From a virus, in the IMG/VR virus record IMGVR_UViG_3300045988_131117: a DNA stretch of 64,000 nucleotides; one strand, given 5' to 3'. This document shows positions 11-60,900 of the stretch, piece after piece. The notes beneath the pieces were generated by a model. The model had not been told where the DNA came from. It did not search any database and saw only the letters and a program-made list of their open reading frames with translations. The number at the start of each line of letters is the position of its first letter. The first letter of the stretch is position 1. Both the position numbers and the translations under genes were made by a program.

Positions 11-2647
11 GTGTCCAATATGGTTATCAAGGTCATGAGTGGGAACCGATTCGTTTCTGTTGTAAAAGCTGACACAGGGGGCATAGATGGTATAAGTAAA
101 ATAAGAAGAACGGCTTTTAACAAGTGGAAGAAGGACGCCGGCCGGTCGGCTACCATCGGCGTCGGCACGCATGTTGTTGCCCAGACCCTTCCCGGAAGAC
201 CGGTGTTTAACATGAAGGTGAACGGTCAAGGATATGGCCAGGTAGAAAATCTCCCCATTACCGAAAAAGGTGCTGAAAAAGTATCTGATGTTGGATATGT
301 ATTAAATGGCAAAGTCGTGCTTAAGAACGGATCTAAATACACAGGCTTCCCATTTGCTTATTCTATATTAAATGACAAGGGGAATAATTACAAAAATGTA
401 AGAGTTCCGGTAGTCGTCATCAAAGGTAAAAACGGTCTTAATTATCTTTTCCCAGTTAGCCTACGTTCTGTAGAATCAGAGGAAGGGCAGAAATGGATGT
501 CTTTTATAGATATGCTGCTTGAATCTGGTGATTCTGAATTGCTACAGATGGGTCAAGATGACATACAAGATCTTAATGCGTATCTAACCAAGTTAGGTCT
601 TGATCCGGCTTCGTATCAAGTATCGTATTTGAATCCTATTTCAGGGCTTAGAAAAGCTCGTGAGGCTATAGAAAAATTATCTACGGTTCCTGATGTTGTT
701 AAGTGGGTAGAAGATGAAAGCAGGAATGTGAAAGACATTGTGACGTCTGAAGTAGAATCTGGAATAGATTTCGAAGGTGAGATGTTTGTCGCTCCTAAGA
801 TCAGGATTCAGTTTGGCAAATCATCTTCCAGACCTAAATCGCTTATAGAGGATGATCTTCCTTTCTCTGATGAGGGTAAGACCGTTACTTCTAAGGTAGA
901 AGATGTGGAAGTTTATGAAGAGGAAATGCCAGAGGAAGGGGCTGCCCGGGAGACTCAGCCGGCGCCATTAGCTCAGCCGGCTCCTGCGGCACAAGCTACG
1001 CAGTCTTTACCTGGCAAGAAGCGTACCTCCAGGAAAAACTTCTCTCTTATGTTAAACGAAATAGAATCTCATATAGAAAAAGAAGGATTGCCGTCTTATG
1101 CTAATATTTTTGATTTTATAGCAAGGAAGATTGTAGGAGGTGATTTGAGGTTTCTTCGTGAGAGAGGTAATCCTAAAAGCCTTAAGGAAGAAATGGGATT
1201 AGAACCTAAAGGAACAGTAGGTGATAAAATATCCACTCCTTCCAGTAAAGGTGGTAAGACCTTAGAAGAATACGTTTCTTGGCTTCGTTCTCAAACAAAT
1301 CAGGTGGTGGTTGATTATGTTGGGCCAAGATCTGACGAACAAATTATATCAGAGTTGAAAAACTTTTTGAAATATATTAATTTTGTTCCAAGCAAGGCTT
1401 TGAATTATTCTCTTAGAGTCAATGGCATGGATACCCTAAAAGAATATGGCACAAAAGAGGAAGTAGAAAAAATGGAATCTGATATCAATAGTTTGGTTTC
1501 TAAAGTTTTGCCTACGGTGGACAACCAAACTATAGAAGATGTTTCTACTGCAATAAAATCAAACAACTTGCCTGCCATATGGGAGCCCGTGGAAAGCCTT
1601 GATATGACAAACGAGGAAAAAATAGAGTTTTTGAATAACGTAGCAGATTTCCTTAGCGGCATACCAGAGTATGATGCTGTCGTGGAGTCTATAGAGTCAG
1701 AATCAGATAATATTTTAAATGATGGAAAAGAAGGAAGTGCAGAAGGCGGTGCAGTACGCACTGAGGAAGATGGCGATAAAAAGGGAGATGGAGAAGGCAA
1801 AGGACAATCCAGAACAAATGTCGAAGTTAAAGGAAATATCGAATTACCTGGATATGAAGAAGGAAGAGTAGATAACTATAGGAAGAACGGAGATAAGTTC
1901 TCTGACATTGCTGAAGTCACTTTATGGCTACTTAGAAGGGCTGCCGGCATAACCTCTATCCCGGAAGGAGAAGAGGTTTATGTAGAGGGAGATGAGGTTA
2001 ATAGTATTATGACCGATATGGAATCAAGGTATGGTATAGACACCATCAATCACTCGCATACGACTAAGGCTATAAGGGATCTTAACGGCGTATCAGGTTA
2101 TAAAGTAGAATACGGCTTAACCTTTTTGACATACGATCCTTTTATTAGGATATCCAATCCAAGGGAAGAATATAAGGCTGCGAAAGACGAGCCTCGTATA
2201 TCCGAAGAACCTCTTACTCACATATCAAGGGTGACAACCCCTTATTTCCTGTACGGCGGTGATGAAGCATATACATCTGTTCCGGCTAAGGTAGAACCTA
2301 TACCGGAGAAGATAATGGGTCGTAATGGCATTAAATTTGGTATGAGTGTAGTCGAGTTAACCAAATTAGGGTACAAAAAAGCTGGTGGAAACTGGATATA
2401 TAAATTCTATATGAACTCAGGTGTGTATGATTTGTATAATATCAGTACCGGTGAAGCGTTTAGGGCAAAACCGGATCTTGGAGTTAAGATAAGTTCCAGT
2501 GCATTCATCCGCTCTTTATCTCAATCTGGTAGAAAAATACAAAATATGATGAGTAATATGAGCCAGGAAGAGATAGATAGGAATAAGAATCTCGTAGAAG
2601 GTTCTGATAATTCGGATTCGATAAATGAGTTAAATAAGGAGTGTTGA
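11..2647 (+). CDS. large hypothetical protein (878 aa), possibly virion-associated; contains PAPLAQPAPAAQATQ low-complexity linker
   Basis: Uninterrupted 2.6-kb ORF. The frame is open to the window start, so the 5' end may be partial. No recognisable catalytic motif. Confidence 0.6.
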   Translation: MSNMVIKVMSGNRFVSVVKADTGGIDGISKIRRTAFNKWKKDAGRSATIGVGTHVVAQTLPGRPVFNMKVNGQGYGQVENLPITEKGAEKVSDVGYVLNGKVVLKNGSKYTGFPFAYSILNDKGNNYKNVRVPVVVIKGKNGLNYLFPVSLRSVESEEGQKWMSFIDMLLESGDSELLQMGQDDIQDLNAYLTKLGLDPASYQVSYLNPISGLRKAREAIEKLSTVPDVVKWVEDESRNVKDIVTSEVESGIDFEGEMFVAPKIRIQFGKSSSRPKSLIEDDLPFSDEGKTVTSKVEDVEVYEEEMPEEGAARETQPAPLAQPAPAAQATQSLPGKKRTSRKNFSLMLNEIESHIEKEGLPSYANIFDFIARKIVGGDLRFLRERGNPKSLKEEMGLEPKGTVGDKISTPSSKGGKTLEEYVSWLRSQTNQVVVDYVGPRSDEQIISELKNFLKYINFVPSKALNYSLRVNGMDTLKEYGTKEEVEKMESDINSLVSKVLPTVDNQTIEDVSTAIKSNNLPAIWEPVESLDMTNEEKIEFLNNVADFLSGIPEYDAVVESIESESDNILNDGKEGSAEGGAVRTEEDGDKKGDGEGKGQSRTNVEVKGNIELPGYEEGRVDNYRKNGDKFSDIAEVTLWLLRRAAGITSIPEGEEVYVEGDEVNSIMTDMESRYGIDTINHSHTTKAIRDLNGVSGYKVEYGLTFLTYDPFIRISNPREEYKAAKDEPRISEEPLTHISRVTTPYFLYGGDEAYTSVPAKVEPIPEKIMGRNGIKFGMSVVELTKLGYKKAGGNWIYKFYMNSGVYDLYNISTGEAFRAKPDLGVKISSSAFIRSLSQSGRKIQNMMSNMSQEEIDRNKNLVEGSDNSDSINELNKEC

Positions 2648-2649
2648 GT

Positions 2650-3180
2650 ATGAGAAGGAGATTTTTTAATGCTGCGGATAATTTCGTGGGAGGATGTTAT
2701 AATAAGTTATCCAATGAAGATATAAAAAGGCTTGGAGGAAAAAGACCTTATGTATGTCAGTTTAATAAAATTCATATACATATAGGACCTGTATTAAAAG
2801 ATCATGATTCTGATGTTAGTTACATAATGTTTAATAGTAATTGGAATTATGGTGGTTATGAATCTATGGTTTATAATCATAGCAATAATGGTATTTTTAT
2901 ATTAGGTGAAAACAAAATTGGTAACATAGAAGATCATATACAAGATCTAACATATTGGTACGAATATGATCCAAGCATTAATGAAAATTATTGTTATTTT
3001 TATTATGAGGCTAATAACAGCGGAAATGCTATCAAGTTGAATGGTGAGTTTGGTGATACCAGTACTGTTTTCAACATTCCCAGCTTGGAAGTCACCACTC
3101 TTCGTGATGGCAGTTTGAGTTTTCCGGAGATTTATATAGAAGGAATTTGGGATCCGTCATTGTATAAGTCGGTTTTATAA
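2650..3180 (+). CDS. MRRRF-N-terminus family protein (176 aa), beta-rich, possible fiber/receptor-binding-like
   Basis: ATG at 2650 preceded by AAGGAG 8 nt upstream. N-terminus is MRRRFF, shared with three other ORFs. Asn/Gly/Tyr-rich C-terminus. Confidence 0.55.
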   Translation: MRRRFFNAADNFVGGCYNKLSNEDIKRLGGKRPYVCQFNKIHIHIGPVLKDHDSDVSYIMFNSNWNYGGYESMVYNHSNNGIFILGENKIGNIEDHIQDLTYWYEYDPSINENYCYFYYEANNSGNAIKLNGEFGDTSTVFNIPSLEVTTLRDGSLSFPEIYIEGIWDPSLYKSVL

Positions 3181-10536: not shown

Positions 10537-11427
10537 TTGAAACAAATCATGGGATTAGACGATTTTAAAAAAGATGTAATGAGAGTGATGACAAAAGAAG
10601 AGTTCGAATCAGCAATCAACGAAGATATTAAATTCGTTGAAGGAATTAAGCATTTTTTTAAACATGATGATGCTACGAGGGTAATGGAACACGTAAAGTC
10701 CGTGTTAGAAGCATCAGTAGATTACTTCTATCCTAATCATCCTGAAGTAGAATTTGAAAAAGATTTTAATATACAATACGATGTCAATAATATCTTGAAC
10801 AAATACGGCCACACCGAAATGGGTATGTATAAAATACAGCTCTATATAGGGAATATTTTGGGTAGTATTCAAAACAAGAAGCCTGTAGACGTGGGAGAAG
10901 TCTCTGATGGATACCACACTTTCAATGAATTGTATCGGTATCGCATGTTGTATAACGCTGCCTTCTTTAACCTATTAGCCAGAAGCGGACAGGTTGAAGT
11001 TTGCAAATCAAGGAGACACAGCGACGGAGAAAAATGCTTCGGTTCTGATGATTGGTTTATTGTGATGGCGATCCTACCTACCGGTCAGGTATCTAATCAC
11101 TATGAAAGCAAATACTGGGATTTGTTTGATGTTCCAGAAAGAGAAACCGCTTTCGAATACGATGGCCATACACCAAATGAAGCTGCCGACAGACTTGAAA
11201 AGTATCTCAAACTGCCTCGTCGTGGCATGACATTCGAACAGGCTTTAGAACAGCTTAAATTAGGTCGTAAGATAAAAAGAATCGATTGGGGTAAAAAGTA
11301 TATCTGTATGTTTATTGTAGAATCTGACGTAAATATATTGATGGTAGATACAGGTCAAAAAGTAGCATCAAATTGGAATCCAACCGAACATGATATTATG
11401 TCTAATGACTGGGAGATTGCGGGATGA
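10537..11427 (+). CDS. protein with C-terminal DUF2829 (Tad2-like) domain
   Basis: The C-terminal ~70 aa, MTFEQALEQLKLGRKIKRIDWGKKY...WNPTEHDIMSNDWEI, match the DUF2829 pattern MxFxEAL..LK.G.K..R..W...Y...W.P...D....DWEI. The N-terminal 220 aa are unassigned. Confidence 0.55.
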   Translation: MKQIMGLDDFKKDVMRVMTKEEFESAINEDIKFVEGIKHFFKHDDATRVMEHVKSVLEASVDYFYPNHPEVEFEKDFNIQYDVNNILNKYGHTEMGMYKIQLYIGNILGSIQNKKPVDVGEVSDGYHTFNELYRYRMLYNAAFFNLLARSGQVEVCKSRRHSDGEKCFGSDDWFIVMAILPTGQVSNHYESKYWDLFDVPERETAFEYDGHTPNEAADRLEKYLKLPRRGMTFEQALEQLKLGRKIKRIDWGKKYICMFIVESDVNILMVDTGQKVASNWNPTEHDIMSNDWEIAG

Positions 11428-30609: not shown

Positions 30610-31113
30610 ATCCCATATTCTATTAAATATATTTAAAGCTATTCGTATGTTTTAATACATCCCCTCGGAGACCTTTCGGTCTCCTTGGTAGATGTAAATC
30701 CCGTTAGGGATAAGTCAGGATTTCTCCTGTAAGTACCCATCGCCAATGTTATTTAAGGTTTTGAATAAGCAACACTGTTCCTGAATACCAGAACTGTTTA
30801 ATCACTTACCTTAGAGCTACAGACTTGGGCAAACATCCGTAGGTAACTATCTATTCTTAAATAACGTAGCCTTTGTTTCAAGGCTTAGGCTAATAACCCG
30901 ATCTCTTAAAGAGATGTATTAAACTTTTATAATAGAATTATATTGGTTTAATACTATTTGGGGTTATAACACTGATCATAATGATTGGTCAGTTCTTCTG
31001 GTTCTAAATCTTGTCCAAAATCCATGTTAAAAATATCGTAATTAGTAAAGCACTTAAAAGCACTGTTTCCGCCGGCAGGAAATCTATGAATGCTGCTTTT
31101 ATTTCTTCAATTA

Positions 31114-42191: not shown

Positions 42192-42854
42192 TTACTGCTC
42201 TTTTGATTCGTCCGGTATAGGCATGTCAAACTTTTTTCTGATAAACGACTCTGTTTCTTCATTGAATGGATAGGCCTCCTTGATAAAATTCATAGCTACC
42301 TCCATGTCACCGTCTGCTATATCTTTATACCTTTCAAAGATACCAACCAGGTCATTGTTGTATGAACGTTCTTGTTTTATGTTGTACACGTATTTCAATA
42401 CCCTGTCTTTGATTTCATTGGCTTTTTTCACAGTATCATTGAAAGAATTTATACTTTCCAATTCTGGATCTTTGTTTTCCTTGTTTACCTTATCAAACTC
42501 TTCCTTGCTATATCCCGCTTCTCCTGTAATGGCTGGGCAAACACTTCCATTTATGATCCAAAACCGTTCATACGATCCTATCAGAAACTTTGATTCCATT
42601 TTAAATGCATTATATTTAACAAGCAAATTAGCCACCTCAGTTGCACCTTCTACGGTTCTAAAACCGATATCTTTTAATATAAATACTGGAACTCCCATTC
42701 TTGGATACACGACTTCTTTTTTGTTCTTTATATTCCAGTTTTTAGCTTCAATTGGAATACCTTTACCAGCAAGCTCTTTGTCTATATACAGATATATCTC
42801 TTCGTCTGTCAATGACACAATCTCATCTCTGCTTAAATCAAAAACTGTTTTCAT
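42192..42854 (-). CDS. hypothetical protein (220 aa)
   Basis: ORF only. Confidence 0.45.
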   Translation of the reverse strand: MKTVFDLSRDEIVSLTDEEIYLYIDKELAGKGIPIEAKNWNIKNKKEVVYPRMGVPVFILKDIGFRTVEGATEVANLLVKYNAFKMESKFLIGSYERFWIINGSVCPAITGEAGYSKEEFDKVNKENKDPELESINSFNDTVKKANEIKDRVLKYVYNIKQERSYNNDLVGIFERYKDIADGDMEVAMNFIKEAYPFNEETESFIRKKFDMPIPDESKEQ

Positions 42855-53537: not shown

Positions 53538-53771
53538 TTACAATACTTTTGTTCCGCAATTATTATATCTTCCGTACTCTTTTTTCGTATCATTCAAGAT
53601 TTCAAAAACCATCTTCTTGTGATCTTCGTTTGGTAACCTATCCTTAACAGCCGATATTACGCCCGCTATAGACGTAAAGCCTGAATCTGTTATTGAACAC
53701 AGCAACACGCCTCTGTCGGCTCCGGTGCTTATTGCTGACGCCTTTATAATATCATTCTTATATATTCTCAT
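53538..53771 (-). CDS. hypothetical protein (77 aa)
   Basis: ORF whose start codon lies 21 nt downstream of tRNA-like element C1. Confidence 0.45.
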   Translation of the reverse strand: MRIYKNDIIKASAISTGADRGVLLCSITDSGFTSIAGVISAVKDRLPNEDHKKMVFEILNDTKKEYGRYNNCGTKVL

Positions 53772-53792
53772 AACTTTTTTGTTTTATTGTTT

Positions 53793-53853
53793 GTGAGATG
53801 CCCAGAATCGAACCAGGACCGGCACATACGCACCGGCACGCCGCGTCATCCCC
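53793..53853 (-). ncRNA. tRNA-like minihelix element C1 (acceptor-like stem, variable hairpin region and T-arm; no D-arm)
   Basis: Minus-strand T-arm CCTGG-TTCGATT-CTGGG. The 3' strand CATCTCA pairs with 5' GGGGATG at positions 2–7. 61 nt long. Ends 21 nt upstream of the ATG of the 77-aa gene. Confidence 0.4.
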
Positions 53854-53946
53854 TCTATGATGCAGAAATAGGCATGCCTATCCTCACGAACCGACATGCC
53901 AAAACCCAAAACTTAATTTGATGAATAAAATAGATTAACAAAAATA

Positions 53947-54261
53947 CTATTCTAATTCTTTTATAATATCTTTCACAATATTCAGCCTTACCTCCTTCGT
54001 TTCTGGACTAAGACAACCAAACCACCCATAAAACGTTCTTGTTTCCTCTGGTTCTGTGGCCATACTTATCTTCTCCTCCAATTCCGGGAAATATATTCTC
54101 ACCATTTCGTCTGAACGAAACTCATAGATATTTTTATGTGTTTTGAAATACATAAACACTACATTTCTTAACGCAACACATATGTATTCCCCATCCTCTA
54201 ACCTATCAATCATCTCATATACCTTTTTCCATATGAATAATCGCTCTTCTTTTGTAAACAT
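53947..54261 (-). CDS. hypothetical protein (104 aa)
   Basis: ORF only. Confidence 0.4.
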   Translation of the reverse strand: MFTKEERLFIWKKVYEMIDRLEDGEYICVALRNVVFMYFKTHKNIYEFRSDEMVRIYFPELEEKISMATEPEETRTFYGWFGCLSPETKEVRLNIVKDIIKELE

Positions 54262-54269
54262 ATCTTTCT

Positions 54270-54617
54270 TTATTTTTGTGGTATTATTTGACTGTACGCA
54301 GACTTTTCCATGTACACAATACTATGCTCCTGTCCAAGTATTTTCTTTGCTGCTTCTTTCTTTATCGCGCAATATCTCCCTGTACGATACGGATTCTTTT
54401 GATCTGATCCATCCTCAACTTCGATAATAAAACAACCTCCGTCATCTATTATCTTTTTGCAATTGTCACATATTTCTCCCGTGCATATATGATGCGGCGC
54501 CTGCCCTTTGATGTTATTCCCTAATAAAGCAATCCCCATCTCTTCACCGCATACTATGCATAGTTCTATGGATGGATTCAACCCATGCTCTGGATGCAAT
54601 ACAATACCGTCTTTCAT
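54270..54617 (-). CDS. Cys-rich hypothetical protein (115 aa)
   Basis: CIVCGEE...HHICTGEICDNCKK cluster. Confidence 0.4.
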   Translation of the reverse strand: MKDGIVLHPEHGLNPSIELCIVCGEEMGIALLGNNIKGQAPHHICTGEICDNCKKIIDDGGCFIIEVEDGSDQKNPYRTGRYCAIKKEAAKKILGQEHSIVYMEKSAYSQIIPQK

Positions 54618-55018
54618 TTTCTATCCTCCTTTATTAATTCTATTATAAACTTTTTATCTTGTTCCCACAATGGCAGCCCTTCTTTTACTGTGTATGCCAC
54701 TGTTTCCCTCTCTCCTATTAATCGCACGGCAATCTCTCTTGCTTTCAAGTCATCCTCCTCATGCGATTTGTTTATTAAATCATAGGCACATGATTCCACC
54801 TTTTGCCTTTCGATTATTATCGAACCCATTAACTCGCTTATATGCGATCCTAAAAACGATAAGACATTAATAGCTTTCCCAATATCATTTGAAATAGCAC
54901 TTGCTAAATACATCTTATCCATATACTCCGGCAAAGCCTCGTATGCCGTTTCTATGTTTTTATACTGATTTTCGTTTACCTCCCTTTTAATCAGTTCTTC
55001 AAATTCTTCTTTTAACAT
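54614..55018 (-). CDS. hypothetical protein (about 134 aa from MLKEEFEELIK)
   Basis: The internal ATG at 55018 is used because the track's upstream extension would overlap tRNA-like element C2. Confidence 0.4.
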   Translation of the reverse strand: MLKEEFEELIKREVNENQYKNIETAYEALPEYMDKMYLASAISNDIGKAINVLSFLGSHISELMGSIIIERQKVESCAYDLINKSHEEDDLKAREIAVRLIGERETVAYTVKEGLPLWEQDKKFIIELIKEDRK

Positions 55019-55041
55019 GTTCTTCCCTATTTTAATGTTGT

Positions 55042-55086
55042 GTGAGATCGCCGGAATCGAACCGACTTGCTGCACCATGAATCCCA
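55042..55086 (-). ncRNA. tRNA-like minihelix element C2
   Basis: T-arm GTCGG-TTCGATT-CCGGC. The 3' strand GATCTCA pairs with 5' TGGGATT across all seven positions (5 Watson-Crick plus 2 G-U). 45 nt long. Preceded by a 13-bp hairpin (55094–55123) and ends 23 nt upstream of an ATG. Confidence 0.4.
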
Positions 55087-55093
55087 TAAAGCA

Positions 55094-55123
55094 AATGCTC
55101 CGATCTTCGCAGATGGGAGCATT
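55094..55123 (-). terminator. strong hairpin terminator
   Basis: AATGCTCCGATCT / AGATGGGAGCATT 13-bp stem (one mismatch) with a tcgc loop, followed on the minus strand by a TTTGCTTTAT T-rich run. Confidence 0.5.
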
Positions 55124-55353
55124 CTGTCTAAAGCATAAGAAAATTAATGAAGAAATTTTTCTCACTTACGCCATAGCATCTAAAATAGCTATCAGCACTA
55201 TTTCTATGACAAACATAATAGAAAATATCTTAAATGCCTTTTTCATATCGCTATCTCCTCCTTTTTATTTTTTTTAGTTCCACAATAAACTGTTCCGGCT
55301 CTGCTCCGACCTACGTTCCACCTACAACCGCAGGCCTTAGCCCAAGGCGCCGC

Positions 55354-55623
55354 CTACTCCCCCTCTATGGCAGCCTGTTCGTACCTACAAATCCAATCTC
55401 CATCTATACAACTATCACTACGCGATAATAAACATTTATCCTTATAACAATCATAAAAAATACACCTATCACAACTGTAATCCTTAACGTCTACACAGCT
55501 AACTACCTTAGCATATACTATTCCATCACTGCCTTCTATTCCTTTTACCCCGAAAATAGAACCTTCTACCTCCTTACTCAAATCTAAGTCAGGCGCAAAG
55601 TCATATACGTTCATACCATCCAT
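55354..55623 (-). CDS. small Cys-rich protein with CDRCIF motif (89 aa)
   Basis: VVSCVDVKDYSCDRCIFYDCYKDKC; a paralog of the 34314–34511 ORF. Confidence 0.45.
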   Translation of the reverse strand: MDGMNVYDFAPDLDLSKEVEGSIFGVKGIEGSDGIVYAKVVSCVDVKDYSCDRCIFYDCYKDKCLLSRSDSCIDGDWICRYEQAAIEGE

Positions 55624-56490
55624 ATTTTAATTGTTAAACATCCCGCTTAAAAAAAAATACTCACATAATGCAGTCCTCAACCCTTAATCTGTTGGAAGGA
55701 ACCTATATAATGCTGTTTTAAACCCTTATCATATTGAATTTTGTGGAAATGATCTACTGAACACTGTTTTAAAACGCTTATCTATTGAATTTTGTTGGTA
55801 GGGAGTGCCCTCCCTCTCCCCCTCTCCAACTCCCGCTAATCCTCCGGCTTTCCGCATAGAACCCACGCCCTACCGCCTCACTACCGGCATACGAAGAGCG
55901 CTACAAGCTTATACTCTGGCATGAAGTATGGGGTGTTTGGAGATAATATCATTCCATAGAGAGAATAGAGAGCCTTCAGCCCACGCCCTACCGCCTGTTC
56001 CTCCTATCAAGATAGATATTCAGACCTATAATCAAAGCCAGAAACAAAAAGCAAAAAACCATCACGATATTATACTGATCTGGTCCGTACTCTAACATAG
56101 ACCTTACTCCAACCGATAAAAAATACAGGTCAGATACTAATAAAAACCACCACATAAAATAAAAAATTTACAATAAGTATGTCCGAAAATACGGGTATTA
56201 TAAAACATAACTAATTGATAATCAAGCATACCTCGTTTTTAAGAAAAATACAATAAGCCTGATTTTCAATCCATAGAGATGAAAAAGGCGGCATCCGACA
56301 CCCTATTTTGGGTCAGAAAACCGCCTCAAGTTTCGTTTTAGACCAATTTTAACGACATGATATAGACAAAATACCGGCATTATATCCAAACTGTCCTATT
56401 TTAGTTTCGTTTTAGACCAATATAGCTCAAATCCGCCGTTCACTCTCAGAATACCTACCCGTAAATAGAAAGAGTAGGATACGAAAATAG

Positions 56491-56525
56491 GGCTGCTCCG
56501 ACGTTCGGAACAACCCTACTCCTAT
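56491..56525 (-). terminator. hairpin terminator-like element
   Basis: AGGG...CCCT outer stem with an inner CCGA-CGT-TCGG hairpin, 3' of the 68-aa gene. Confidence 0.35.
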
Positions 56526-56732
56526 TTAAATGCTGTTTATGTTTTCCTTGACGTATGTTCGTGATGTATGAACTTTACGCTTGCATTTGTCCTTTCCTGT
56601 ATCGGCATGATACGCTTCTTTGAGATCACGATACAACATAAATTCACGATACGCTCTTTTCCGCTTTTCTTTAGCTTCTTTCCTGGACAGACCGCGAACG
56701 TCTACCATGTGAGATTTAAATTTCCTTTCCAT
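56526..56732 (-). CDS. small basic protein (68 aa)
   Basis: KEAKEKRKRAYREF... Lys/Arg-rich. Confidence 0.35.
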   Translation of the reverse strand: MERKFKSHMVDVRGLSRKEAKEKRKRAYREFMLYRDLKEAYHADTGKDKCKRKVHTSRTYVKENINSI

Positions 56733-56754
56733 TTTCTTTATGCTTTAATTATGA

Positions 56755-56925
56755 TTAACCCCAGCGGTTAAGTGCTTCAATATAGAAACCTTCCGCCTCT
56801 TTGTACTCACTTTCGCTTAGTGCTTCAACCGTCTCGATATAGTTACGCAATGTTATTTTTACGCAACTGTTTTTAGATTTATTGAACGCTTCAGTTAAAG
56901 CGTTGATCATTGCTTTCTTTCCCAT
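56755..56925 (-). CDS. small hypothetical protein (about 57 aa from MGKKAMINAL)
   Basis: ATG at 56925 lies 23 nt downstream of element C3. The longer track ORF would overlap the element. Confidence 0.35.
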   Translation of the reverse strand: MGKKAMINALTEAFNKSKNSCVKITLRNYIETVEALSESEYKEAEGFYIEALNRWG

Positions 56926-56948
56926 GTTATTATATTGTTTATAATTTA

Positions 56949-57012
56949 GAGGTTGCTCCGGAATCGAACCGAACACGCATTCCTATTCTATACGAATTTT
57001 ATGCTACAACCA
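56949..57012 (-). ncRNA. tRNA-like minihelix element C3
   Basis: T-arm TTCGG-TTCGATT-CCGGA. The 3' strand GCAACC pairs with 5' GGTTGT (6 bp including one G-U); the acceptor sequence differs completely from C1 and C2. 64 nt long. Ends 23 nt upstream of an ATG. Confidence 0.4.
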
Positions 57013-58713: not shown

Positions 58714-59106
58714 TCACTTACTTTCCCATATTAATTTATCTCGTACTTTTCCTTTCTTTACTTCTTCACACTTTCCTGCCACCCATCCAACGAGGTAGCA
58801 GAAAGGTTCTGATTGCATTACTTTTTCTCCTAAGAAATCAAATGCATTGAGAGACACATGGACTGCCTCGTGTGAGACTGTGTTAAAATCAATAACGTTC
58901 TTATTAATAAACCATATCAAGAATCCTGTGCAAGGATCTAATTTGCATCCTCCATACGGTACGGTTATGGTTGCGCCCATACTATTATCTATGTAACTAA
59001 AATCGTTATTGAAACACTCTACCATACCAGAAACATCTTTACCTACATATATCCACAGATTAAAGGGATAGACTTGTGGGGAAAATTGATACAGTTCGCA
59101 CTTCAT
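58714..59106 (-). CDS. putative zinc metallopeptidase-like protein (HExxH, 130 aa)
   Basis: SHEAVHVSL contains an HExxH motif; otherwise unassigned. Confidence 0.35.
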   Translation of the reverse strand: MKCELYQFSPQVYPFNLWIYVGKDVSGMVECFNNDFSYIDNSMGATITVPYGGCKLDPCTGFLIWFINKNVIDFNTVSHEAVHVSLNAFDFLGEKVMQSEPFCYLVGWVAGKCEEVKKGKVRDKLIWESK

Positions 59107-60059
59107 TGTGATATAAGTTTATGTTTTTCTATAAATTCCCTGAATCTGATATCCGTGACATCAAGCACAAACCCAGCAGCACCAGCATGTCCTCCACCAC
59201 CGAATCTCTTACTTACTTCACAGCAATCCGCGCTGTCTTCCACGCATTCATAAAGAGAGAACCTAACCTTACCACCTGGCATGATACAAAATGGCATAAG
59301 GGCTTTAATTTTTCTACCGTCTAACCAGTCTCGTGTAAGAGAATCAAATACTTTAGAACTAAATTCCGTGGTATTCATCGCCACTACCTTCACCTCATCG
59401 ACGTAAGCTTCAAACGAATACGCACTTACCTCTTGTTCGTTTTTACCAGCCATGTAATTAATTATAGCACGTCCTTCTTTAGCGAGATCATAAAAAATAA
59501 GATCAATTTCATTGTCCTTCATATCTTCTTTAAAATGGTCATACAAATACGACAATGCTATTAATACATTGAGTCTTATTTTTGATCTCAAGGCATACTG
59601 GATAGCTACTACCGTATCCCAACCTAATTCAGATTCTTTATTCCACACATCGTAGTCTGACAGGCACCGGACGATCGCCGGCACCTTCCCCATAAGCAGG
59701 TCGGCGGCAAGTGCGCACGCACCAGTACCGACTCTCCTCAACCCTGGAACTACGAACCCCCATGTCTTACTGTCCTCAATAATTCCCTTATGGTGATCTA
59801 TCCACATCAGGCTCTTTCCTTCATCAAGCCACTTTTTGAAAACCGTTTTAGAATCGGCTCCGAAAGACACGTCAAGAACATAAACAGCATCTAAGTCACG
59901 CACCTTGCTGGTAACTTTCTTAACATCATCTTCATACGAATACGGGATATAAACAACATCCTTGTTTTTACTGTGTTCATACATAGTTGCGATGGCTGCC
60001 GACACAACGCCATCTAAATCCGATTTATGATAAACTATCGCTGTTTTCTTTACTTTCAT
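59103..60059 (-). CDS. DHH-DHHA1 family phosphoesterase (NrnA/RecJ-core-like, 318 aa)
   Basis: Motif I YHKSDLDGVVSA, motif II VLDVSF, motif III WIDHHKG (DHH) and DHHA1 GGGGHAGAAGF. Confidence 0.7.
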   Translation of the reverse strand: MKVKKTAIVYHKSDLDGVVSAAIATMYEHSKNKDVVYIPYSYEDDVKKVTSKVRDLDAVYVLDVSFGADSKTVFKKWLDEGKSLMWIDHHKGIIEDSKTWGFVVPGLRRVGTGACALAADLLMGKVPAIVRCLSDYDVWNKESELGWDTVVAIQYALRSKIRLNVLIALSYLYDHFKEDMKDNEIDLIFYDLAKEGRAIINYMAGKNEQEVSAYSFEAYVDEVKVVAMNTTEFSSKVFDSLTRDWLDGRKIKALMPFCIMPGGKVRFSLYECVEDSADCCEVSKRFGGGGHAGAAGFVLDVTDIRFREFIEKHKLISQ

Positions 60060-60900
60060 GATATAAGCTTGTATATTTGATACTACCGTCTTTTAATGTT
60101 TCTATTTTTATAACATCACTATATGAATTGAAATTCTGATCTTTATCAATCCTTATATTCAGCACATCATCTACGGTTGCAGTTTTTCCATCATCGGTTT
60201 CAATCTTATAAAAATCTTTTAAAGTGATTTTTATATTAAGACCAACCCCATATGGATTTTCAAGGATATATATATGATCGTTGTTTAGAATAACTATTCC
60301 TTCACTTGTATGTTCTTTGGACAACACATAATTCAAATCAAGGTCTTTACCAACAAACGTGATAACATCCATATATTCAACGCCGGCCTTCTCAGCACAT
60401 ACCTTATCCGAATCAGAGAACTGCCCTGGTAGGCCACTGGCGTCCCCGACCATCAACGAACATCCCTTAAGTTGACTAAAGTTCATACCACGCATTACCG
60501 TGTCTTTACACTTCATAAGAATATCATCAATCATGCCAGTGTTAGGCTTCCTCATCGGATTTTGTTCGTCATTTGAATAACACAACCTTTTTTCATATAG
60601 GACGCCTCTTATGCCTCTCTTTACCGCCAGATCATGTACGGACCTCAGTACGTATTCTATCTTAGCTTCAATATCAGCTCCAGAAACAAACCCAGCTTCT
60701 ACTCCTCCTTGATTGCTTACGATAGCAAATACCTTAACACCGTTCTCCTGCATGAGGTCAAGAGCCTTATTCACCACATCCATCTTAATCCTCATATCTG
60801 TCAAGTCTGTAGCGAACGTATTCCCAGAAGCGGTTTCTATAAGCGTCCCGTCAAAATCGAATAGCAGTATTCTTTTGTTTTTAATATCTACATCGTTCAT
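60025..60900 (-). CDS. HAD-superfamily phosphatase, polynucleotide 3'-phosphatase (PNKP)-like N-terminal domain with an unassigned C-terminal region
   Basis: HAD motif I LFDFDGTLI, motif II IVSNQGG and motif III/IV LMVGDASG. No P-loop kinase domain. Confidence 0.6.
   Translation of the reverse strand: MNDVDIKNKRILLFDFDGTLIETASGNTFATDLTDMRIKMDVVNKALDLMQENGVKVFAIVSNQGGVEAGFVSGADIEAKIEYVLRSVHDLAVKRGIRGVLYEKRLCYSNDEQNPMRKPNTGMIDDILMKCKDTVMRGMNFSQLKGCSLMVGDASGLPGQFSDSDKVCAEKAGVEYMDVITFVGKDLDLNYVLSKEHTSEGIVILNNDHIYILENPYGVGLNIKITLKDFYKIETDDGKTATVDDVLNIRIDKDQNFNSYSDVIKIETLKDGSIKYTSLYHESKENSDSLS

What the first reader, a model, noticed from the sequence alone, without database searches (positions are those of the whole stretch)
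53793..57012. Three D-armless tRNA-like minihelix elements, each ending 21–23 nt upstream of a start codon
Three minus-strand elements (53793–53853, 55042–55086, 56949–57012) share a near-canonical tRNA T-arm (5-bp stem, TTCGATT loop, GGTTCGATTCYGG). Just 3' of the T-arm sits a 6–7-nt strand that pairs with a 5' strand, as a tRNA acceptor stem would, followed by a single discriminator-like C. The acceptor stems differ between copies yet still pair: GGGGATG/CATCTCA, TGGGATT/GATCTCA and GGTTGT/GCAACC. The region between the 5' strand and the T-arm is 11–30 nt, too short for D and anticodon arms, so these are not canonical tRNAs. All three end 21, 23 and 23 nt before the ATG of the next gene, and one sits right after a strong terminator hairpin. 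An acceptor/T-arm minihelix is the minimal substrate of RNase P, RNase Z and CCA-adding enzyme. The arrangement therefore suggests tRNA-punctuation-like mRNA processing sites that define 5' ends. Alternatives are translation or stability elements, or conserved promoter/regulator sites that merely mimic the B-box.
Basis: partly seen in the sequence, partly recalled or inferred. Interest (0 to 1): 0.8.

Follow-up and report, generated by a model that had tools for sequence, protein, structure and literature searches.

The report
tRNA-like RNA elements before phage genes
Three conserved RNA structures in a gut crAss-like phage keep only the acceptor-stem and T-arm half of a tRNA and sit just upstream of small genes, most likely as cutting signals for the host's tRNA-processing enzymes, although no cutting has been shown.

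Summary
Three minus-strand elements (53793-53853, 55042-55086, 56949-57012) carry the only canonical T-arm hairpins in the 64 kb window. Each T-arm is stacked on a 6-7 bp acceptor-like stem. Each element ends 21-24 nt before an ATG.

They are not tRNAs: ARAGORN and Rfam reject them, and none has an anticodon loop. They are not host tRNA fragments either. About 270 copies in related IMG/VR contigs keep the stems through G-U wobble and compensatory changes, so the fold is a sense-strand RNA.

The window is an epsilon crAss-like phage, 94% identical to crAssE-Sib. Its real tRNA cluster lies in the same leftward gene array. That cluster follows the same kind of GNRA-capped hairpin and is followed after 16 nt by an ATG. 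Further paralogs (E4, E5) occur in related gut-phage contigs. Gene content changes exactly at the element borders.

Best reading: tRNA-derived, non-decoding tRNA mimics used as RNase P / RNase Z processing signals, which also act as recombination joints for gene cassettes. The structure and origin are well supported. The cleavage is inferred only.

Rivals are trans-acting tRNA mimics (the related phage crAssE-Sib encodes Ro60 and a candidate YrlA-like RNA) and decaying pseudogenes.

The parts
53793..53853 (-). E1 tRNA-like structure. 5' acceptor strand 53853-53847; mini-hairpin ACG-CGG-CGT 53846-53838; 8-bp tetraloop hairpin 53837-53818; T-arm CCTGG-TTCGATT-CTGGG 53817-53801; 3' acceptor strand 53800-53794; discriminator-like C 53793.
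   Evidence: Sequence. 34 distinct variants are 98.6% paired, with 13 extra pair types. RNAalifold gives a cloverleaf-like consensus. Not called a tRNA.
53772..53792 (-). A-rich 21-nt leader between E1 and the ATG of the 77-aa ORF (53538-53771). Gene content switches after about 13 nt of it in relatives.
53871..53900 (-). Long hairpin upstream of E1: 8 bp, a 1x1 mismatch, 4 bp and a GUGA tetraloop, followed by a U-rich tail (53870-53854).
   Evidence: Minimum-free-energy fold. Very low diversity among 84 relatives.
53912..53946 (-). Ultra-conserved AT-rich stretch right after the stop codon of the 104-aa ORF. It begins with TATTTTTG, which fits the Bacteroidetes -7 promoter box TAnnTTTG. Candidate promoter; unproven.
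   Evidence: pi = 0.003, against 0.105 at third codon positions of the adjacent ORF. Motif scan.
55042..55086 (-). E2 tRNA-like minihelix. TGGGATT 55086-55080; 13-nt linker containing a hypervariable 7-mer; T-arm GTCGG-TTCGATT-CCGGC 55066-55050; GATCTCA 55049-55043; C at 55042.
   Evidence: The T-stem switches GTCGG/GCTGG while keeping pairing. The acceptor strands are invariant in 122 copies.
55019..55041 (-). 23-nt leader between E2 and the ATG (55018) of the 134-aa ORF. At least four different downstream genes or leaders follow ...CACAACATTAAAA in relatives.
55093..55125 (-). Hairpin upstream of E2: GAAUGCUCC-C-AUCU-GCGA-AGAU-C-GGAGCAUU, then UGCUUUAU. Terminator-like or 3'-protective.
   Evidence: RNAalifold finds 4 pairs with compensatory double changes (A-U to G-C in 5 variants, and others). 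Fold z = -2.0.
56949..57012 (-). E3 tRNA-like structure. (T)GGTTGT 57012-57006; interrupted hairpin GCAT-AAA-ATTC-GTATA-GAAT-AGGA-ATGC 57004-56977; T-arm TTCGG-TTCGATT-CCGGA 56973-56957; GCAACC(T) 56956-56950.
   Evidence: 13 distinct variants: all 19 pairs are 100% paired, and 2 pairs show double changes. The acceptor and trailer resemble the phage tRNA-Cys.
56926..56948 (-). Leader between E3 and the ATG (56925) of the 56-aa ORF (56755-56925).
53538..53771 (-). 77-aa ORF led by E1. Function unknown.
54614..55018 (-). 134-aa ORF led by E2 (phrog_15742, unknown function). Absent in many relatives, where E2 leads directly into the next gene.
56755..56925 (-). 56-aa ORF led by E3. Function unknown.

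Best explanation
E1, E2 and E3 belong to a small family of tRNA-derived RNA structures that no longer decode. They are transcribed as part of the leftward (minus-strand) gene array of an epsilon crAss-like phage.

Selection has kept the half of a tRNA that processing enzymes read. That half is a canonical T-arm (G53-C61 closing pair, loop UUCGAUU) stacked on a 6-7 bp acceptor-like stem, with no encoded CCA. The D and anticodon arms have been lost or replaced by short tetraloop hairpins.

The most likely mechanism (inferred, not shown) has three parts:
- Host RNase P cuts at the 5' edge of the acceptor stem. The upstream RNA then ends a few nucleotides after a stable GNRA-capped hairpin.
- A 3' tRNase (RNase Z type, as expected for CCA-less precursors) cuts after the discriminator. 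The downstream mRNA then starts with a short, unstructured, A-rich leader of about 16-30 nt.
- The real tRNAs of the same operon must be excised in this way.

Because the elements are conserved repeats, they also serve as homology patches where gene cassettes are swapped or deleted.
For: Shown:
1. They are the only T-arm hairpins in the window, all on the coding strand and all in intergenic DNA before an ATG.
2. The fold is an RNA fold on the minus strand.
   - E3: 19 of 19 pairs are 100% paired with 2 double compensations. Slid controls give 38-53%.
   - E1: 98.6% paired with many G-U/G-C/A-U switches. These would be A-C mismatches on the other strand.
   - The 12-bp acceptor plus T helix across 30 distinct variants of four paralogs has 6 pairs with double changes. 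That is 45 cells against 16 +/- 2.9 in shuffles, 0 of 500.
3. They are not tRNAs. ARAGORN calls none of about 250 copies. Rfam gives no tRNA hit for E1-E3 even in 70-90 nt searches.
4. They appear tRNA-derived.
   - The E3 acceptor and trailer (GGTTGT...GCAACC T CTAAA) resemble phage tRNA-Cys (GGCTTGT...ACAAGCC T CTAAA).
   - Paralog E4 is called a D-armless tRNA-Met(CAU) by ARAGORN in mitochondrial mode.
   - Paralog E5 is a clean cloverleaf with 18.8 bits to Rfam tRNA, below the 29-bit threshold.
5. Real tRNAs sit in the same module. In crAssE-Sib, the tRNA-Met-Gln-Arg-Cys cluster lies in the same minus-strand array. It is preceded by a hairpin of the same shape (9 bp, a mismatch, 4 bp, a GNRA loop, then a U tract). 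It is followed 16 nt later by the ATG of the next gene. None of these tRNAs encodes CCA.
6. The elements persist in the lineage: E1 in 76 of 81 and E3 in 24 of 25 loci with enough flank.
7. Gene content switches exactly at the element borders.

Established knowledge:
- An acceptor/T-arm minihelix is a sufficient substrate for RNase P, tRNase Z and CCA-adding enzyme.
- A bacterial tRNA mimic with a 7-bp acceptor stem is cut by RNase P and receives CCA (PMC4201824).
- Plant mitochondrial t-elements form mRNA ends in this way (PMC1920247).
Against: - No RNA ends or cleavage data exist. The function is inference only.
- Only E2 (and E4) have 7 acceptor pairs. E1, E3 and E5 have 6 plus a mismatch. 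In PMC4201824, Y RNAs lacking a 7-bp stem were not cleaved by RNase P.
- In the E2 family the acceptor strands never vary, so that stem rests on comparison between paralogs. RNAalifold prefers a competing small hairpin for its 5' strand.
- Single-sequence folds are not more stable than shuffles: z = 0 to -1.
- Covariation comes from closely related genomes (about 95% identity) and from paralogs, so the events are few and not independent. In E1 all changes are one-sided transitions, and the shuffle control is not significant.
- E1 diversity (pi 0.060) is lower than at third codon positions (0.105). It is no lower than at first and second positions of the neighbouring ORF.
- If the upstream hairpins are efficient terminators, the elements would be made only by read-through.
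- E5 is followed by about 320 nt with no ORF, so leading a gene is not universal.
Confidence: 0.5

Rival explanations
1. The elements are made to be released as small stable tRNA mimics that act in trans. Candidate roles are extra Y-RNA-like partners of the phage Ro60 protein, or decoys or sponges for host factors that read the acceptor/T-arm half of tRNA (modification enzymes, CCA-adding enzyme, tRNA-targeting toxins or defence nucleases). Their position before genes would be secondary. This is compatible with processing by RNase P/Z and differs only in what the product is for.
For: - The closest sequenced phage encodes a Ro60-related protein. It is preceded by two tRNAs and a fourth non-tRNA T-arm element that gets a full-length, sub-threshold YrlA hit (28.5 bits, E = 0.0055).
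- The best weak Rfam match for E1 is the tRNA-like part of the Deinococcus Y RNA (13.9 bits).
- E1 and E5 carry tetraloop hairpins in place of the D and anticodon arms, as designed mimics do.
- E5 is not followed by a gene.
- The operon also carries a polynucleotide 3'-phosphatase (PNK3P domain, 1.7e-20).
- E1 and E2 carry a G3-U70 pair, the alanine identity element. It is not conserved in E4, L015 or some E1 variants.
Against: - The elements lie about 75 kb from the Ro60 gene, whereas known Y RNAs are encoded beside it (PMC4201824).
- No Ro-binding helix is evident.
- There is no YrlA hit for E1-E3 at E <= 10, and the Y RNA score is far below threshold (13.9 against 80).
- There is no evidence for any stable small RNA.
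Confidence: 0.2
2. They are decaying duplicates of the phage's own tRNA genes (pseudogenes) with no present function. They look conserved only because the sampled genomes are close relatives and because recombination homogenises repeats.
For: - Real tRNAs lie in the same operon, and E3, E4 and E5 look tRNA-derived.
- All relatives found share about 94-95% identity.
- E1 diversity is not lower than at first and second codon positions of a neighbouring ORF.
- Five loci have lost one element through E2/E1 fusion without obvious harm.
Against: - In five paralogs, decay has removed or replaced the decoding arms. It has left the T-loop sequence, the G53-C61 pair and both stacked stems intact.
- 13 of 16 distinct stem changes in E1 and all 9 in E3 keep pairing, including double compensations.
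- The inner arms were replaced by stable tetraloop hairpins and did not simply erode.
- E4 and E5 are shared by contigs with different neighbouring sequence, which suggests they travel as useful units.
Confidence: 0.13
3. They work at the DNA level, as a promoter, a regulator binding site or a site-specific recombination site that merely resembles the tRNA B-box/T-arm. One variant is that they are attP-like copies of a host tRNA 3' end.
For: - TTCGAT followed 17-18 nt later by an A/T-rich hexamer (CAATAA, CATTAA, TTATAA) loosely resembles a -35/-10 pair (read).
- The elements coincide with recombination breakpoints.
Against: - Stem positions change while keeping pairing, and many pairs are G-T. 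These are mismatches on the opposite strand and are meaningless for a duplex binding site.
- The sigma-70 scan lists no promoter at the elements.
- No TAnnTTTG box lies inside them.
- A scan of 185,579 species genomes for the T-arm plus 3' strand 21-mer found no tRNA. The only true match is a phage contig binned into a MAG.
Confidence: 0.05
4. They are functional but highly unusual armless tRNAs that take part in translation.
For: - E4 has a 5-bp stem with a 7-nt loop CACAUAA, one base away from a tRNA-Met anticodon loop. ARAGORN in mitochondrial mode calls it.
- crAss-like phages are known to carry unusual and suppressor tRNAs.
Against: - E2 has no inner arm at all.
- The inner loops of E1 and E3 are 4 and 5 nt.
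- E4 has A, not U, at position 33, and one third of its copies break the stem.
- Armless tRNAs need specialised mitochondrial translation factors. No such factor was looked for here.
Confidence: 0.02

Closest known systems
Plant mitochondrial t-elements and the mitochondrial tRNA-punctuation model
   Same: Degenerate tRNA-like structures, or real tRNAs, lie between coding regions of long transcripts. They are read by RNase P and RNase Z to create mRNA 5' and 3' ends (PMC1920247). The position before start codons, the retention of acceptor and T-arm, and the loss of decoding parts all match.
   Different: That system is organellar and uses protein-only or eukaryotic-type enzymes. Here the setting is a bacteriophage of a Bacteroidales-type host, the elements follow GNRA-capped hairpins, and no cleavage has been shown.
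YrlA / bacterial Y RNAs (Rfam RF02553, RF01053)
   Same: These are non-decoding tRNA mimics with a canonical T-arm and an acceptor-like stem. One of them is cut by RNase P and receives CCA (PMC4201824). They occur in phages. The related phage crAssE-Sib has Ro60 and a candidate YrlA-like RNA.
   Different: Y RNAs are encoded next to Ro60 and carry a Ro-binding helix formed by their 5' and 3' ends. E1-E3 lie about 75 kb away, have no such helix, sit in front of protein genes, and score far below threshold.
mascRNA / MALAT1- and MEN-beta-type tRNA-like 3' processing signals
   Same: A cloverleaf-like tRNA mimic with a shrunken anticodon arm is embedded in a longer transcript. RNase P and RNase Z excise it. 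The upstream RNA is left with a protective 3' structure, which parallels the hairpin just upstream of E1 and E2.
   Different: Those are eukaryotic nuclear lncRNAs. There the protected upstream RNA is the functional product, and here the downstream mRNA is presumed to be. No Rfam hit.
Canonical tRNA genes co-transcribed with mRNAs (this phage's own Met-Gln-Arg-Cys cluster; E. coli tufB operon type)
   Same: Same operon, same strand, same upstream hairpin shape, same short leader to the next ATG, and no encoded CCA.
   Different: E1-E3 lack an anticodon loop and a D-arm, and they fail ARAGORN and Rfam tRNA.
PeSL-type regulatory cassettes of T4-like phages (promoter-early stem-loops at mosaic junctions; recalled from knowledge, not looked up here)
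   Same: Short conserved intergenic elements are repeated in front of small accessory genes. They mark the borders where gene cassettes are shuffled by recombination.
   Different: PeSLs are a promoter plus a terminator stem-loop. Here the repeated unit is a tRNA mimic, and no promoter has been shown in it.
tRNA gene fragments left by integrating elements
   Same: Partial tRNA-like sequences that annotation tools may or may not call (PMC9897764).
   Different: Those are one-sided copies of a host tRNA end. E1-E3 have both acceptor strands, and they match no tRNA in 185,579 species genomes.

Membership tests
tRNA (Rfam RF00005 / ARAGORN) | Scores at or above the family threshold (29 bits), or is called by a tRNA finder in standard mode | tested here: not met
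   ARAGORN finds 0 genes in the window and calls none of about 250 copies in relatives. Rfam gives no tRNA hit at E <= 10, even on 70-90 nt windows. With mitochondrial mode and a lowered threshold, only E3 is weakly called.
tRNA (Rfam RF00005 / ARAGORN) | Anticodon arm with a 5-bp stem and a 7-nt loop with U33, plus a D-arm | tested here: not met
   E2 has a 13-nt linker only. E1 has a 3-bp/3-nt and an 8-bp/4-nt hairpin. E3 has a 4+4 bp stem with a 5-nt loop.
tRNA (Rfam RF00005 / ARAGORN) | T-arm (5 bp, G53-C61, loop TTCRANY) stacked on a 7-bp acceptor stem | tested here: inconclusive
   The T-arm is canonical in all three. The acceptor is 7 bp in E2 and 6 bp plus a mismatched 1:72 position in E1 and E3.
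tmRNA | tRNA-like domain plus an internal tag reading frame and pseudoknots | tested here: not met
   ARAGORN finds no tmRNA. Rfam matches only the 17-nt T-arm: 6.2 and 9.9 bits at E2, and 4.7 bits over 13 nt at E3.
YrlA / Y RNA | Encoded next to a Ro60 (TROVE) gene | tested here: not met
   The Ro60 gene of the related phage is at 73.1-74.7 kb of OR575929. That is outside the window and about 75 kb from the elements.
YrlA / Y RNA | Matches the covariance model, including the Ro-binding helix | tested here: not met
   No YrlA hit. E1 scores 13.9 bits against a threshold of 80 for Deinococcus_Y_RNA, and only over the tRNA-like part, model positions 33-85.
YrlA / Y RNA | Bound by Ro60 | not testable with these tools
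   Needs immunoprecipitation.
t-element / tRNA-punctuation processing signal | tRNA-like fold placed at the border of a coding region within a longer sense transcript | tested here: met
   All three lie on the coding strand, in intergenic DNA, 21-24 nt before an ATG. The fold is supported by covariation.
t-element / tRNA-punctuation processing signal | Cleaved by RNase P at the 5' side and by RNase Z at the 3' side, giving the mature mRNA ends | not testable with these tools
   No RNA-end data or enzymes were available.
Intrinsic terminator (for the hairpins upstream of E1 and E2) | G+C-rich hairpin followed directly by a U tract | tested here: inconclusive
   The hairpins are stable and covarying. 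The tails are U-rich but interrupted (UGCUUUAU, UAUUUCUG). The simple terminator scan did not list them.
attP / host tRNA 3' fragment | Identity to the 3' part of a host tRNA gene | tested here: not met
   The 21-mer scan of one genome per 185,579 species gave 5 hits. None is a tRNA, and one is the phage itself.

The most novel reading that the evidence does not exclude
A widespread gut phage lineage has turned worn-out tRNA genes into portable 'expression sockets'. Each is a non-decoding acceptor/T-arm mimic, often behind a protective hairpin. Host RNase P and RNase Z excise it, so that any gene cassette dropped behind it gets its own defined 5' end and a translatable leader. This would be mitochondria-style tRNA punctuation with degenerate t-elements, seen for the first time in a bacteriophage. 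It would be coupled to modular gene exchange. The excised minihelices might also serve as tRNA decoys or as partners of the phage Ro60.
Probability: 0.35. Interest if true: 0.75.

Novelty: new variant of a known kind. Interest (0 to 1): 0.6.

Why it matters
crAss-like phages are among the most abundant viruses of the human gut, and how they organise gene expression is largely unknown. For the model phage phi14:2, no common motif was found upstream of early transcripts (10.1101/2020.03.07.982082).

If these elements are processing signals, three things follow:
- The phage would use the host tRNA-maturation machinery to break long transcripts into separately stable, translatable mRNAs. That mechanism is known from organelles and a few eukaryotic lncRNAs. 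My literature searches here found no description of dedicated degenerate tRNA mimics doing this in phages.
- It would explain why accessory-gene cassettes are exchanged exactly at these points.
- It would give annotators a recognisable landmark.

It is directly testable with existing gut metatranscriptomes and with simple in vitro cleavage assays.

If the released RNAs act in trans instead, they would add to the short list of phage-encoded tRNA mimics.

Tried and rejected
- Ordinary tRNA or tmRNA: rejected by ARAGORN and Rfam. Only the out-of-window paralog E4 is called, in mitochondrial mode. E3 is called only at a lowered threshold.
- More copies in the window with degenerate T-loops: relaxed descriptor scans give chance-level hits.
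- Coding explanation for overlapping ORFs (41 aa over E1; GTG-extended 73 aa over E3): rejected. Relatives carry 1-nt and 14-nt indels in E1, and the GTG is lost in many E3 variants.
- Host tRNA fragment or attP: rejected by the genome-contig scan.
- Template-strand DNA hairpin promoter, as for phage N4 virion RNA polymerase: rejected. The G-T pairs become A-C mismatches on the template strand.
- Sigma-70-type or Bacteroidetes-type promoter inside the elements: none found.
- Other close relatives in GenBank phages: only crAssE-Sib, so deeper covariation could not be obtained.
- Function of the led genes: no Pfam hits, and only two unknown-function PHROGs.
- The 'CCA-adding enzyme / polyA polymerase' label of the 220-aa ORF (42192-42854) in the crAssE-Sib record is not supported by Pfam, so it was not used as evidence.
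- A suspected link between the E6-led gene and the MmcB-like gene that follows tRNA-Cys failed BLASTP. E6 remains unresolved.
- Literature searches found no prior description of such elements in crAss-like or other phages.

Full report
**What is there**

On the minus strand, GGTTCGATTCYGG occurs exactly three times: 53802-53814, 55051-55063 and 56958-56970. I scanned both strands of the 64 kb window for a 5-bp stem (G-U allowed) closed by G-C around a TTCRANY loop. The scan returns these three sites and nothing else. Looser loop definitions give hit counts no higher than shuffled sequence.

In each element the T-arm is followed directly by a strand that pairs with a strand 13-32 nt upstream of the T-arm:
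- E1: GGGGATG/CATCTCA, 6 bp plus a G-A mismatch.
- E2: TGGGATT/GATCTCA, 7 bp.
- E3: GGTTGT/GCAACC, 6 bp plus a T-T mismatch.

An A-rich leader of 21, 23 and 23-24 nt then runs to the ATG of a small ORF.

Three details need correction. E1 has two inner hairpins and folds as a cloverleaf-like four-way junction. E3 has an interrupted inner hairpin. Both E1 and E2, not just one element, follow a long hairpin capped by a GNRA tetraloop with a U-rich tail.

**What they are not**

- ARAGORN finds no tRNA or tmRNA in the window.
- Rfam finds nothing at gathering thresholds except a HEARO RNA elsewhere.
- At E <= 10, on 4 kb or on 70-91 nt windows, the only clan hits are the bare T-arm against tmRNA models. 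E1 also gets 13.9 bits to the tRNA-like part of the Deinococcus Y RNA, whose threshold is 80.
- The overlapping ORFs are not coding. Relatives carry 1-nt and 14-nt indels in E1, and many lose the GTG over E3.
- The T-arm plus 3' strand of E1/E2 matches no tRNA in one genome from each of 185,579 species. The only true hit is a phage contig binned into a MAG. They are therefore not host tRNA fragments or att sites.

**Genomic setting**

The region is 94% identical to phage crAssE-Sib (OR575929, 151 kb), an epsilon crAss-like phage of the human gut (PMC11054128). All genes here lie on the minus strand, in a long array of replication genes and small genes of unknown function.

In crAssE-Sib, about 7 kb upstream of E3 and just beyond the window edge, the same array holds four real tRNA genes: Met, Gln, Arg and Cys. 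They abut one another or are separated by 2 or 68 nt. None encodes CCA. The last one ends 16 nt before the ATG of the next gene.

A hairpin of the same shape as those before E1, E2 and E4 precedes the cluster: 9 bp, a mismatch, 4 bp, a GUGA loop, then UUUUU (compare). The unit 'hairpin, then tRNA or tRNA mimic, then short leader, then ATG' is thus used repeatedly. The genuine tRNAs in it must be excised by RNase P and a 3' tRNase.

**Comparative evidence for an RNA structure**

They hold 122 copies of E2, 98 of E1 and 49 of E3. The row counts below are fewer than the distinct flanked variants because the sequences were trimmed to the elements, and two E1 deletion variants were left out.

- E3 (13 distinct sequences): all 19 proposed pairs are paired in every sequence. 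Two pairs show double compensations: C-G to U-A in the T-stem and C-G to U-A in the inner hairpin. With the partner slid by 1-3 columns, only 38-53% of cells pair.
- E1 (34 distinct sequences): 98.6% of cells pair, and 12 of 19 pairs vary. By my count, 13 of 16 distinct changes keep pairing. All are one-sided wobble transitions, so the shuffle control is uninformative.
- Many pairs are G-U, which would be A-C mismatches in the complementary strand. The structure therefore belongs to the sense RNA.
- Across paralogs, I took 5' strand + T-arm + 3' strand from 30 distinct variants of E1-E4. Pairs 2-12 are about 99% paired. Six pairs show double changes: 45 cells against 16 +/- 2.9 in shuffles (0 of 500). 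Slid controls give 31-60%. The inner parts were cut out by hand for this test, and paralogs are not independent samples.
- The hairpin before E2 shows clear compensation, for example A-U to G-C in five variants.

Weak points:
- The E2 acceptor strands never vary. RNAalifold prefers a competing small hairpin for its 5' strand.
- Single-sequence folding energies are unremarkable.
- All relatives are close, at about 95% identity.
- E1 diversity (0.060) lies between that of third codon positions (0.105) and first and second positions (0.054-0.060) of the adjacent ORF.

**Origin and family**

E3 resembles the phage tRNA-Cys in its acceptor and trailer: GGCTTGT...ACAAGCC-T-CTAAA against GGTTGT...GCAACC-T-CTAAA. 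The difference amounts to the loss of one base pair from both strands.

Related contigs hold further paralogs:
- E4 (27 contigs): a perfect 7-bp acceptor TGGGACG/CGTCCCA, and a 5-bp arm with loop CACAUAA, one base from a tRNA-Met anticodon loop. ARAGORN's mitochondrial mode calls it a D-armless tRNA-Met. It follows a GUGA-capped hairpin.
- E5 (21 contigs, mostly 30-61 kb): a clean cloverleaf whose two inner arms end in tetraloops. Fold z = -3.4, and it scores 18.8 bits to Rfam tRNA against a threshold of 29.

The family thus forms a graded series, from D-armless tRNA-like to bare minihelix. The T-loop, the G53-C61 pair and the stacked stems are what persist. The whole crAssE-Sib genome contains only the six tRNAs, E1-E3 and one more non-tRNA T-arm element next to its Ro60 gene.

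**Mosaic junctions**

- After ...CACAACATTAAAA of the E2 leader, relatives continue with at least four different genes or leaders.
- One gene (ATGGAAGTAATAAC...) follows E1 in many genomes and E2 in others.
- Five loci have E2/E1 fusions that delete everything between them.
- The E2-E1 distance is bimodal, about 1249 or about 854 nt, depending on one gene.
- For E5 the break is at the other side. At least five unrelated upstream contexts join exactly at the first G of the acceptor stem.

The elements therefore mark cassette borders. This is expected if conserved repeats (E1 and E2 share 33 nt at 79%) promote recombination and if element-plus-gene is a portable unit.

**Mechanism**

Shown: a conserved sense-strand RNA fold that keeps exactly the half of a tRNA recognised by RNase P, tRNase Z and CCA-adding enzyme. 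It is placed where real, CCA-less tRNAs are placed in the same operon.

Inferred: host RNase P cuts at the 5' edge, which leaves the upstream RNA ending just after a stable hairpin. A 3' tRNase cuts after the discriminator, which leaves the downstream mRNA with a short unstructured leader.

Precedents:
- Plant mitochondrial t-elements (PMC1920247).
- A bacterial tRNA mimic with a 7-bp stem that RNase P cuts and that receives CCA (PMC4201824).

Cautions:
- The same paper reports no cleavage of mimics with shorter stems, and E1 and E3 have 6 bp.
- If the upstream hairpins terminate efficiently, the elements are made only by read-through.
- A very conserved AT-rich stretch begins with TATTTTTG, which fits the Bacteroidetes -7 box. 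It lies upstream of the E1 hairpin (pi 0.003), so E1 may sit in a 5' UTR.
- E5 is followed by about 320 nt without an ORF.

I put the processing reading at about 0.5.

**Rivals**

- Trans-acting tRNA mimic, about 0.2. crAssE-Sib encodes Ro60 behind two tRNAs and a candidate YrlA-like RNA (28.5 bits, E = 0.0055, full-length), and E1 weakly resembles a Y RNA. However, E1-E3 are 75 kb from Ro60 and lack a Ro-binding helix.
- Functionless pseudogenes, about 0.13. This is disfavoured by the selective retention and compensations but not excluded, given the shallow divergence.
- DNA-level promoter or binding site, about 0.05. This is disfavoured by G-T-rich covarying stems and by the promoter scans.
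- Armless decoding tRNAs, about 0.02.

**Novelty**

Searches of the held literature found no description of such elements in crAss-like or other phages. In kind they are closest to t-elements, mascRNA-type processing signals and the tRNA-like domain of YrlA. I therefore rate them as a new variant of a known kind. The structural claim is solid and the functional claim is untested.

Noticed in passing
window 30729-30967 (-): HEARO RNA (the RNA that accompanies IscB/HNH-type nucleases), 112.9 bits, above the Rfam threshold of 83. A mobile RNA-guided nuclease element is likely present in this phage.
   Followed up: no
window 55630-56525: An intergenic stretch of nearly 900 nt holding only short ORFs (<=55 aa) that I did not assess. 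It has exact direct repeats (19 nt at 56329-56347 and 56403-56421; 17 nt at 55862-55878 and 55980-55996) and a good sigma-70-like promoter match (TTGATT-17-TATAAT, 56225-56197, minus strand). The PhageTerm-defined genome end of crAssE-Sib maps to window 56444/56445. This may be a packaging, terminus or origin region.
   Followed up: partly
L155 2601-2705 (OR575929 72601-72705), outside the window: The related phage encodes a Ro60-related protein (73091-74725). It is preceded by tRNA-Tyr, tRNA-Lys and a non-tRNA T-arm element with a full-length but sub-threshold YrlA (Y RNA-like) match: 28.5 bits against 69, E = 0.0055. This is probably a phage Ro60/Y-RNA pair in a crAss-like phage.
   Followed up: partly
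L122 7039-7069 (-), upstream of tRNA-Met: The real tRNA cluster is preceded by a hairpin of the same architecture as those before E1, E2 and E4 (9 bp, a mismatch, 4 bp, a GUGA loop, then UUUUU). A TAACTTTG box lies about 50 nt further upstream.
   Followed up: partly
L033 about 11000-11045 (+), and L128-L153: Paralog E4: a D-armless tRNA-Met-like element with loop CACAUAA, called only by ARAGORN in mitochondrial mode. It precedes a DUF4494-like gene. It occurs both in long (147-173 kb) epsilon-like contigs and in contigs of 5-97 kb.
   Followed up: partly
L131 about 1480-1570 (+), L136, L157-L175: Paralog E5: a clean cloverleaf with tetraloop-capped inner arms. At least five different upstream contexts join exactly at its first base. 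It is followed by a conserved region of about 320 nt with no ORF and no Rfam match, possibly a larger non-coding RNA with a tRNA-like 5' end.
   Followed up: partly
L139 about 2840-2930 (-), and L176-L179: E6: a T-arm (GTCGG-TTCGACT-CCGGC) with a 6-of-7 acceptor-like pairing and 52 nt between the strands, before a 117-aa gene. It does not fold convincingly and is not called a tRNA. Unresolved.
   Followed up: partly
window 59103-60900 (-): Adjacent genes for a polynucleotide 3'-phosphatase (PNK3P domain, 1.7e-20) and a weak DHH/DHHA1 phosphoesterase. This is an RNA- or DNA-end-healing pair in the same operon as the tRNAs and tRNA mimics.
   Followed up: partly
window 42192-42854 (-): The homologous ORF in crAssE-Sib is annotated 'polyA polymerase / CCA-adding enzyme'. 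Pfam gives no support for this (best hit THP2, E = 0.006, below cut-off).
   Followed up: partly
window 55301-55315 and 56493-56507: Two more hairpins share the ...TCGGAGCAG arm with the hairpin before E2. They lie after the 89-aa and 68-aa ORFs but have no tRNA-like element behind them.
   Followed up: no
L126 (NZ_DXLG01000138.1, 3.9 kb contig of a 'Veillonella sp.' MAG): This contig is a fragment of the phage (E2 with its hairpin and downstream gene). It is a likely binning contaminant and not a Veillonella sequence.
   Followed up: no
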